DNA of 58,204 nucleotides from Octopus sinensis (Eukaryota). Position 1 is the first letter of the stretch. Each line of letters begins with the position of its first letter. A program made the translations under genes and the position numbers. The notes below the pieces were generated by a model. The model did not search any database and was not told where the DNA came from. It was given only the letters and a program-made list of their open reading frames with translations. This document shows, one piece after another, positions 47,472 through 48,813 of the stretch. The stretch lies in contig NW_021833662.1 in NCBI RefSeq assembly GCF_006345805.1, positions 1 to 58,204 of the forward strand, in the 5' to 3' direction.

Positions 47472-47625
47472 CATTCCCTCCTAATCAATATATATAAGAT
47501 AGAAAGATATATAATATATATATAATATATATAAAAGTTAATCTAAACATGAAAGCACAAAAAAACACAACAACGCGAGACGTGGAACATATATAGTATT
47601 ATTAGACGCTCAGGAAAGAAGGAGG

Positions 47626-47660
47626 GTTTAACGTTTCGAGCGGAGCTCTTCGTCGGAAAC
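47626..47660 (-). ncRNA. Minimal type I hammerhead (duplicate at 48995-49029)
   Basis: GTTT-CCGACGA-A-GAGC TCC GCTC-GAAACGTT^AAAC. Confidence 0.75.
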
Positions 47661-48327
47661 ATAGGAGAGGGAAAATCGCCAACGGTACATACGCGGTCAC
47701 ATTTTAATGTTATATACATATACCTCCCACACCAACCCCTCCTTCACACACATACACACGCACACACACACACACACATAACACACGCACATGCACGCAC
47801 ACACACACAGGAATGCACATATACTCCACAGACACAACACTCCACACAACGCCAAGCATACACTCATACATACACGCACATACACACACATACACACACA
47901 CGCACACACAGACGCATGCACACACTACACACAAAACACACACACGTATATACATACGCGCACGCATACTTCAAACTGTCAGTTAAACACCTTTCTACAG
48001 ACCATTCCCCTACGCACAAGTGAAGAGACAAACAACTACACAAAAGACCGCCACTTCCTACAACATTAAGCGAAACAAAGTTCACTCACGCATGCACATA
48101 TAAACAGACAAAACCACATACACACACACACAACACATACACACACATAATCAGACACACACAGACTTTCGCACATGCGCATACTTACACATACCTTCTC
48201 TTAGACTTCCTTGTCTTTGAAAGAACTTTTTCTACACCCATTTCCGTTCGGTCATTTCAAAATGTAACCACATGTGAATCATTGGCAATATTCTTTCTCA
48301 GTCTTCTCTTCTATTGGACTTTCCTCT

Positions 48328-48363
48328 GTTTCCGAAGAAGAGCGTCTGCTCGAAACGTTAAAC
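48328..48363 (+). ncRNA. Minimal type I hammerhead (duplicate at 49700-49735)
   Basis: GTTT-CCGAAGA-A-GAGC GTCT GCTC-GAAACGTT^AAAC. Confidence 0.75.
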
Positions 48364-48813
48364 CATCATTATTTCCTTCCCTGAGCGTCCGTTAATACAT
48401 TACATGCACCACGTTCTCGCATTGTTGTGCGTTTTGTGTTTGTTCCTTTTTGGATTTACTACATATACATATATGTATTTATGCATACACACACACACAC
48501 ACACATATATATATATGTATATATACATATACATATATATATATACACATATACATATACATATATACATATATATGCATATATATACACATGCATACAC
48601 ATAGATGAATATATATATAAACACATATATATACATACATTTATATATATACATATATTTACAAGTATATATATATGCATATATATATATGTGTATATAT
48701 ATATATATATACATATATGTATATATATATATATTATATACATATATATATATATGTATGTATATGTAGATATAGTGGTATATATATATGCATATATATG
48801 TATATATGTATAT

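What the first reader, a model, noticed from the sequence alone, without database searches (positions are those of the whole stretch)
47534..48460. Strongly diverged arms that keep matching minimal hammerheads
The arms align only loosely, yet over 35-36 nt the two HHRs differ only at N7 (C/A) and loop II (TCC/GTCT), the unconstrained positions. Both share C4, the extra A and a loop-less ACGT stem III that needs a partner copy. This is the strongest sign of purifying selection on the motif, either on both polarities or in two subfamilies joined head-to-head.
Basis: partly seen in the sequence, partly recalled or inferred. Interest (0 to 1): 0.75.

Follow-up and report, generated by a model that had tools for sequence, protein, structure and literature searches.

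The report
Two Penelope retroelement ends, back-to-back
This stretch is the broken-off ends of two related Penelope-type jumping genes that likely landed back to back at different times, each carrying the small hammerhead-ribozyme motif already known from such elements; it is ordinary, except that the commonest versions of the motif in this genome have changed letters in the part predicted to do the cutting.

Summary
In detail: two inverted arms (77% identical over 142 nt) each carry a minimal hammerhead, differing only at N7 and loop II. They are not one two-polarity element. Each arm is the 3' pseudo-LTR end of a separate subfamily of a Neptune-like Penelope retroelement; both were found downstream of RT/GIY-YIG ORFs elsewhere. 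The left motif has 3,409 exact copies in the genome, the right 22. The 'spacer' is the right element's own 3' UTR. This junction occurs only here. Other mixed pairs occur in all orientations around (TA)n tracts, and the right copy looks older (12.5% vs 4.4% from its family). The motif is conserved between subfamilies (p 0.004-0.02, one compensatory pair), but inserted copies decay about neutrally, so selection likely acted on source elements, not on this locus. A read-through RNA is predicted to mask both ribozymes. Side result: shared C4 is not one inherited state (canonical-U4 sister subfamilies exist), and a third lineage (12,441 motif matches) has U at position 6. Cleavage is untested. The scan has noted other Penelope hammerheads in this genome; a sequence look-up found none on this family.

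The parts
47500..47533 (.). (TA)n tract at the 3' end of the left element; the usual target of this family
   Evidence: Sequence; 37 of 40 left-type copies end at a TA-type tract
47534..47707 (-). Left arm: short 3'-terminal (pLTR) copy of the young subfamily L1, starting at the family's modal 5' end and lacking about 27 nt that most copies have
   Evidence: Best relatives 91-96% identical and solo; same arm downstream of the ORF in 12 of 20 ORF-anchored stretches; 38 of 70 copies start 100-113 nt upstream of the predicted cut
47626..47660 (-). Minimal type I hammerhead motif, C4 variant, N7=C, 3-nt loop II; predicted cut between 47630 and 47629
   Evidence: 3,409 exact copies in G000; 717 exact copies of the U4 version
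47708..47716 (.). Short TA-containing linker between the two 5' ends; likely the remnant of the TA tract into which the left copy inserted
   Evidence: Sequence; junction pattern found only in the window; one 67-nt contig in run X16 crosses it
47716..48460 (+). Right element: 5'-truncated copy of the older subfamily R1. The CA-rich 'spacer' is its own 3' UTR minisatellite
   Evidence: Spacer and arm are collinear in R copies elsewhere, e.g. L035, L046, L047, L057, L058, L060; R-type UTR downstream of the ORF in 5 of 20 stretches and in L113
48328..48363 (+). Minimal type I hammerhead motif, C4 variant, N7=A, 4-nt loop II; predicted cut between 48359 and 48360
   Evidence: 22 exact copies in G000, two of them in the window
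48461..48902 (.). (TA)n and degenerate microsatellite host DNA at the 3' end of the right element
   Evidence: Sequence; most R copies end at TA tracts
48903..50245 (.). Second, 98% identical copy of the whole nest plus its microsatellite flank: a local tandem duplication between TA tracts, or an assembly duplicate
   Evidence: differences are mostly homopolymer and microsatellite length changes

Best explanation
The two arms are the 3' ends (pseudo-LTRs) of two subfamilies of one Penelope-like retroelement, and they likely came to lie head-to-head through two separate insertions into the same (TA)n tract, the right copy likely first. Steps: (1) shown: each arm type lies downstream of an RT plus GIY-YIG ORF elsewhere in the genome, and one element has the arm on both sides of its ORF; (2) shown: copies of both types are flanked by TA tracts and are mostly 5'-truncated; (3) inferred: the R copy (about 745 nt) inserted by target-primed reverse transcription, and a short L copy later hit the TA remnant at its 5' side, in the opposite orientation because (TA)n reads the same on both strands; (4) inferred: the nest was then duplicated between TA tracts, or duplicated by the assembler; (5) partly shown: the hammerheads match because the motif was conserved along the source-element lineages, while inserted copies lose it at about the neutral rate; (6) predicted: in the source RNA the motif works, if at all, as a slow dimeric or protein-assisted ribozyme or as a folded signal, and at this locus a read-through transcript would pair each motif with the antisense of the other and silence it.
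For: ORF link: a 30-codon RT fragment beside an R copy (L059) led to ORF loci. Of 20 ten-kb stretches around them, 12 have an L arm and 5 an R-type UTR downstream on the ORF strand; 3 have neither downstream. L146 is arm-ORF-arm, with the 5' arm fused to the element's start. [quoted passage not shown] Independence: 3,409 vs 22 exact motifs; junction only in the window; 0 of 40 and 0 of 20 co-occurrences; 2 of 46 distinct R loci have a head-to-head L within 1.5 kb, with other junctions. Across 287 loci, neighbouring arms of three lineages occur direct, head-to-head and tail-to-tail. Age: window R differs from its family majority at 27 of 216 sites, window L at 7 of 160, p=0.006; nearest relatives 89% vs 96%. 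Neutral decay: among 49 L1 copies chosen by a flank word, non-CpG changes are 2.0% in the motif vs 2.8% in the 3' flank (p=0.20), CpG changes 7.8% vs 5.1% (p=0.19), and 13 of 49 have a core change. Uncut template: 1 of 70 copies starts at the predicted cut site. Masking: stem II closing-pair probability 0.0 in full-unit folds of both strands.
Against: The window's R motif is intact although the copy is 12.5% from its family majority, which is uncommon (an exact motif in 2 of 28 top R hits); I put this down to ascertainment, about 0.25 such loci expected by a rough count. Part of that 12.5% may be source-lineage difference rather than age. Core positions decay a little more slowly than the 3' flank (1.2% vs 2.8%, p=0.09) and the motif much more slowly than the near 5' flank (2.0% vs 6.9%, p=1e-8; that flank holds subfamily variants and truncation edges). 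11 of 70 copies were dropped as cut short and 10 set apart as L2 before that count. L copies lie near R copies about ten times more often than genome density predicts. The linker TA remnant is only about 6 nt.
Confidence: 0.88

Rival explanations
1. Single-event two-armed insertion: the head-to-head pair was made in one transposition event, the enzyme copying an R RNA on one strand and an L RNA on the other, as in the inverted 5'-truncated copies typical of Penelope-like elements.
For: Inverted 5'-truncated copies adjacent to the 5' end are a described PLE feature (PMC8557442, passages), and PAc protein cleaves and extends both strands in vitro (PMC11167929, passages). The linker is only about 9 nt. 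Four L-L head-to-head pairs were seen.
Against: The arms belong to subfamilies of different apparent age (12.5% vs 4.4%, p=0.006; nearest relatives 89% vs 96%). The other head-to-head pairs inspected have TA tracts or host DNA between the arms.
Confidence: 0.07
2. One mobile element with hammerheads on both polarities (viroid-like or ambisense retrozyme), the tandem 1.37-kb units being laps round an RNA circle.
For: The tandem duplication puts two like motifs on each strand about 1,370 nt apart, which could supply dimer partners. Both motifs are intact.
Against: No second locus. The repeat unit includes about 440 nt of host microsatellite and is bounded by TA tracts, not by a cut site. Arms and spacer are explained as PLE parts. 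Each motif is predicted to be fully paired with the antisense arm. The duplication may not be real.
Confidence: 0.02
3. The nest arose by chance but is now kept by the host, as a long hairpin or ribozyme pair under selection at this locus.
For: Both motifs are intact, including ten CpG-bearing positions in the left one; the R flank has 27 differences in 180 sites outside the motif and none inside.
Against: 20 other R copies also keep an exact motif with flanks 6-30% diverged. The surroundings are other repeats.
Confidence: 0.03

Closest known systems
Minimal hammerheads in pLTRs of metazoan Penelope-like elements (Cervera and de la Pena 2014, PMC4209133; read: text parts 1-2 of 4, supplement parts 1-2 of 3)
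   Same: Type I, short stem I, extra nucleotide between 9 and 10.1, G10.1-C11.1, loop-less palindromic stem III, GUU triplet common in their alignment, mostly solo copies from truncated elements. They also report dual motifs on opposite strands about 100-700 bp apart in Schistosoma mansoni.
   Different: All rows of their Fig. S3 alignment (56 by its legend) that I read have U4 and A6; here the commonest forms are C4 (L1, R1) and U6 (lineage T). Stem II is at the short end (4 bp). Here the opposite-strand pair is shown to come from two subfamilies.
Neptune/Nematis-type EN+ PLEs (Craig et al. 2021, PMC8557442; read: introduction and passages)
   Same: [quoted passage not shown]
   Different: A long CA-rich minisatellite 3' UTR and a sharp cluster of 5' ends 100-113 nt upstream of the predicted cut. 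Neptune versus Nematis was not settled with a reference tree.
PAc (Poseidon) of Anolis (Frangieh et al. 2024, PMC11167929; read: passages)
   Same: pLTR hammerhead; their result that uncut RNA is the main substrate and that cleavage is dispensable in vitro fits 1 of 70 copies starting at the cut site here.
   Different: Different clade; the PAc motif overlaps the start codon and has been assayed (protein-assisted); nothing is assayed here.
Metazoan non-LTR retrozymes (bioRxiv 10.64898/2026.07.22.740005; read: part 1 of 5)
   Same: Type I hammerhead in short repeats derived from PLE pLTRs; short tandems of L arms exist (L069, L146).
   Different: Retrozymes are head-to-tail arrays with a motif on one strand; the L tandems seen are separated by TA tracts, and this locus is a head-to-head nest of two subfamilies.
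Natural hammerhead core variants (Perreault et al. 2011, PMC3088659; read: passages)
   Same: U4C is described: it lowers activity considerably in vitro yet permits viroid infectivity; changes at A6 give low activity.
   Different: There these are isolated variants; here they are the majority state of retroelement families with thousands of copies.

Membership tests
EN+ Penelope-like element | RT followed by C-terminal GIY-YIG endonuclease in one ORF, upstream of the arm | tested here: met
   Not in the window itself (truncated copies). ORF in L091: RVT_1 E=0.0011, below Pfam's cut-off, no GIY-YIG hit; GIY-YIG-type motif at residue 514; relatives P0002 and P0016 hit RVT_1 and GIY-YIG; arm downstream in 17 of 20 stretches
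EN+ Penelope-like element | [quoted passage not shown] | tested here: met
   Motif seen in L091, L088, L095, L098 translations; definition from PMC8557442
EN+ Penelope-like element | Pseudo-LTR partial tandem (3' end copy fused to the 5' start of the element) | tested here: met
   L146 arm-ORF-arm; the same fusion in L007
Neptune or Nematis clade | Zn-finger-like C-x(2-5)-C-x2-C motif between RT and EN | tested here: met
   Residue 476 of the L091 ORF
Neptune clade specifically | RT phylogeny groups it with named Neptune elements | not tested
   No named reference set; source names were uninformative. (TA)n preference points to Neptune
Minimal PLE hammerhead | Stem I, stem II with G10.1-C11.1, extra nucleotide after A9, palindromic 15.2-16.2, NUH triplet | tested here: met
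   64 of 64 cells paired and one compensatory pair across 8 hand-picked rows, a single evolutionary event
Minimal PLE hammerhead | Canonical core CUGANGA | tested here: not met
   Both window motifs have C4; canonical U4 is found in sister subfamilies (717 exact L copies; 37 of 69 R-pattern hits read CTGA)
Minimal PLE hammerhead | Self-cleavage as a dimer or with protein | not testable with these tools
   Modelled active dimers (-5.7 to -8.3 kcal/mol) lie far above the minimum-energy duplexes (-19.0 to -22.5), without tertiary terms
Retrozyme or two-polarity viroid-like element | The unit recurs at other loci as a mobile whole | tested here: not met
Retrozyme or two-polarity viroid-like element | Circular or unit-length RNA with ends at the cut site | not testable with these tools
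   Only assembled contigs were available, which cannot show RNA ends

The most novel reading that the evidence does not exclude
The most prolific Penelope lineages of this genome have repeatedly detuned the hammerhead's catalytic core (U4 to C in the R and L lineages, probably twice; A6 to U in a third lineage with 12,441 motif matches) while keeping both stems, the palindrome, a compensatory pair and a free N7. The motif would then be selected as a folded signal for the element's own protein, or as a deliberately slow cutter, rather than as an efficient ribozyme, and these sister subfamilies would be a natural allelic series for the open question of what PLE hammerheads are for.
Probability: 0.3. 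Interest if true: 0.6.

Novelty: new member of a known kind. Interest (0 to 1): 0.27.

Why it matters
The locus itself matters little: it is a chance nest of two retroelement ends, and both minimal hammerheads in PLE ends and opposite-strand pairs are in print. It is a useful caution that paired ribozymes on both strands, a common screen for viroid-like elements, can arise from microsatellite-targeting retroelements piling up. The family-level pattern is worth more: sister subfamilies with U4, C4 and U6 cores and very different copy numbers offer a ready test of whether cleavage helps, hinders or is irrelevant to PLE spread.

Tried and rejected
Rfam at gathering score and at E<=10: no hammerhead model matches, only low-complexity miRNA hits. 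Extending long R copies upstream gave no ORF directly. A search with the far upstream part of L033 mostly returned an unrelated inserted repeat; only L113 was useful. The flank word turned out to be a minor variant (105 matches), so its count cannot be set against the 3,409 motif matches; it served only to draw copies blind to the motif. The first decay counts were inflated by copies cut inside the motif and were redone. Expression: no RNA holder listed; contigs of guessed-RNA runs cover the family but cannot show transcription, strand or ends. Runs X15, X12 and X9 gave no piece past 47723; a part without cover shows nothing. No allelic copy of the locus turned up when searching the upstream flank, which is itself a repeat, so neither the pre-insertion state nor the duplication could be checked. 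The original U4C viroid paper was not held; I rely on the citing passage. Rejected ideas: a SINE or MITE with terminal inverted repeats (arms are PLE 3' ends and mostly solo); copies derived from cleaved RNA (1 of 70 starts at the cut); U4 copies being CpG decay only (10 of 10 flank-defined L2 copies have U4; among 3-nt-loop R hits 22 of 22 have T4). Literature searches found no paper on this family or on C4 or U6 cores in PLEs; subscription journals, Repbase/Dfam entries, bioRxiv supplements and part 3 of the 2014 supplement were not seen and may describe them.

Full report
Observation. The window is contig C10133 of G000, a 2.72-Gb animal genome. The left motif lies on the minus strand at 47626-47660 and the right motif on the plus strand at 48328-48363. 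The arms are 76.8% identical over 142 nt, and the motifs match at 33 of 36 columns, differing only at N7 and loop II. The whole unit recurs at 48903-49832 with 98% identity. Rfam does not see the motifs.

Each arm belongs to a dispersed family. The left arm's best relatives are 91-96% identical; none of the 28 fetched outside the window carries a right arm in the window's arrangement, and they end at a fixed 3' end followed by (TA)n. The exact left motif occurs 3,409 times. The right arm's relatives are 82-89% identical, and many continue collinearly through the CA-rich 'spacer' back to about 47716, so spacer and right arm are one truncated copy. The exact right motif occurs 22 times, two in the window. 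Long left-type copies extend into sequence homologous to the right type, so the two are sister subfamilies, here called L and R.

The parent element. An RT fragment beside an R copy in L059 retrieved ORF loci. In 20 ten-kb stretches, the ORF is followed on the same strand by an L arm in 12 and by an R-type UTR in 5; L136 has an arm upstream and L134 and L140 none within reach. L146 reads arm, ORF, arm, with the 5' arm fused to the element's start, the pseudo-LTR layout. The 608-residue open stretch in L091 has RT motifs, a C-x4-C-x2-C linker and cysteines within the GIY-YIG core. Pfam gives it only RVT_1 below cut-off, but relatives about 50% identical carry RVT_1 and GIY-YIG. These features define Neptune- or Nematis-type Penelope-like elements in PMC8557442 (introduction and passages read); (TA)n targeting favours Neptune, which I did not test by tree.

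Do the arms travel together? An exact junction pattern hits only the two window units. None of 40 loci with an exact left motif (the first sites listed on C1, 2 kb each side) has an R arm, and none of the 20 non-window loci with an exact right motif has an L arm within 1.5 kb. Among 46 distinct R loci, two (L048, L059) have a head-to-head L, and L229 is a third pair with an older arm type; each has its own junction, with TA tracts or other DNA between. Over 287 loci, neighbouring arms occur in every orientation: L-R 3 head-to-head and 4 direct (one of the four is a cut L fragment misfiled as R); L-T 1 head-to-head, 8 tail-to-tail, 8 direct; L-L 4, 7, 9. This fits repeated insertion into shared TA tracts. 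The window's R copy differs from its family majority at 27 of 216 sites, the L copy at 7 of 160 (p=0.006, counting only sites shared by both units), so R likely came first; source-lineage differences could inflate the R figure. One 67-nt contig of run X16 crosses the junction in a single version that differs slightly from both window units. This is weak support that the junction is real DNA: the bridge is borderline in length, and the run may be the assembly's own sample. The unit-to-unit differences look like long-read errors, so the duplication itself is unverified.

Where selection acts. Between subfamily majorities the motif is more conserved than the flanks: L1 vs R1 p=0.019 on substitutions and 0.004 with gaps. 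A third lineage, T, also tied to a more distant ORF (55-59% amino-acid identity in L066 and L285), keeps both stems with a G-C to C-G swap in stem I, one event. After insertion the motif is not clearly protected. Seventy L copies were drawn by a flank word, blind to the motif; 16 of 70 keep the exact motif. After dropping 11 cut copies and setting aside 10 L2 copies, 49 L1 copies show 2.0% non-CpG change in the motif against 2.8% in the 3' flank (p=0.20) and 7.8% against 5.1% at CpG sites (p=0.19); 13 of 49 have a core change. Against this reading, core positions are somewhat slower (1.2%, p=0.09) and the near 5' flank is much faster (6.9%), though it holds subfamily variants. That both window motifs are intact is best put down to ascertainment: about 21 exact R loci, times about 4% with a head-to-head L, times about a quarter with an exact L motif, gives roughly 0.25 expected (my arithmetic).

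C4 is not a shared constraint. All 10 flank-defined L2 copies have U4, and the U4 left motif has 717 exact copies. Among 69 R-pattern hits, all 22 with the 3-nt loop have T at position 4, and those with the window's 4-nt loop split 22 CCGA, 11 CTGA, 1 CCAA (counted by hand). In trees of the arms, U4 rows lie at the base of both sides (149 of 234 arms). With position 4 masked (69 rows), one C4 clade is rejected (p-AU 7e-44) and well-supported branches force at least three changes; two gains from a U4 ancestor is the simplest reading, one gain with reversals is not excluded, and bootstraps had not settled. Lineage T has 12,441 matches to a 31-letter pattern; in the first 100 listed, position 6 is T in 99 and A in none, while position 7 takes all four bases (counted by hand). 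The published alignment of minimal PLE hammerheads has U4 and A6 in every row I read (PMC4209133 supplement). U4C and changes at A6 are reported to lower activity (PMC3088659, passages).

How it works. In the source element the motif sits about 100 nt from the 3' end and is copied to the 5' side in partial tandems, where two copies could pair through the ACGU palindrome, the dimer model of PMC4209133. Cleavage is untested here. The modelled active dimers are much less stable than alternative duplexes. 38 of 70 copies begin 100-113 nt upstream of the predicted cut and only 1 of 70 begins at it, so most templates were uncut, in line with the PAc result that uncut RNA is the main substrate (PMC11167929, passages). 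At this locus a transcript through both arms is predicted to fold into a long hairpin in which each motif pairs with the other's antisense, with stem II probability 0.0 on both strands. That argues against function on both polarities.

Verdict. An ordinary nest of two Penelope-like element ends; new member of a known kind; interest 0.27. Opposite-strand pairs of minimal hammerheads were already noted in 2014. What remains of interest is the family-wide departure from the canonical core. Five paper searches did not find it described, within the limits of the library.

Noticed in passing
window 3933-3960 (+) and about 18930-18960 (-); L284-L295; L066, L285: A third Penelope lineage (T) whose hammerhead-like motif has U instead of A at position 6 in 99 of the first 100 of 12,441 pattern matches, with all four bases at N7 and a compensatory stem I pair; tied to a PLE ORF in L066 and L285.
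   Followed up: partly
L214-L283: 5' ends of short L copies cluster 100-113 nt upstream of the predicted cut (38 of 70), which may mark a transcription start inside the pLTR rather than random truncation.
   Followed up: partly
window 47250-47480: A separate dispersed repeat with a near-perfect palindrome at about 47380-47471; 1,792 candidates, best copies 77-90% identical. Not related to the PLE arms.
   Followed up: partly
window 12782-12864: An old, decayed 3' fragment of the L/R family (74% over 92 nt).
   Followed up: no
L132, L134, L137, L139, L147: The CA-rich 3' UTR minisatellite varies from about 1.2 kb to over 5 kb between ORF-bearing copies.
   Followed up: no
L069:2690-3550; L146:6619-7319: Short head-to-tail runs of L arms separated by TA tracts, next to an inverted T arm in L069.
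   Followed up: partly
window 15297-17744 (-) and 50280-50930 (-): A LINE-like element with a CCCH-type motif and an AP endonuclease domain (Exo_endo_phos), and an unnamed ORF1-like fragment just right of the duplicated unit (no Pfam hit).
   Followed up: no
window 9030-9050, 25294-25314, 29645-29684; L005, L008, L012, L044: Other hammerhead-like cores of unrelated repeat families, seen in the relaxed motif scans.
   Followed up: no
L061:8920-9052; L100-L129: A roughly 133-nt repeat inserted in an R copy's 3' UTR; its other copies often come in pairs about 3 kb apart, as LTRs would.
   Followed up: no
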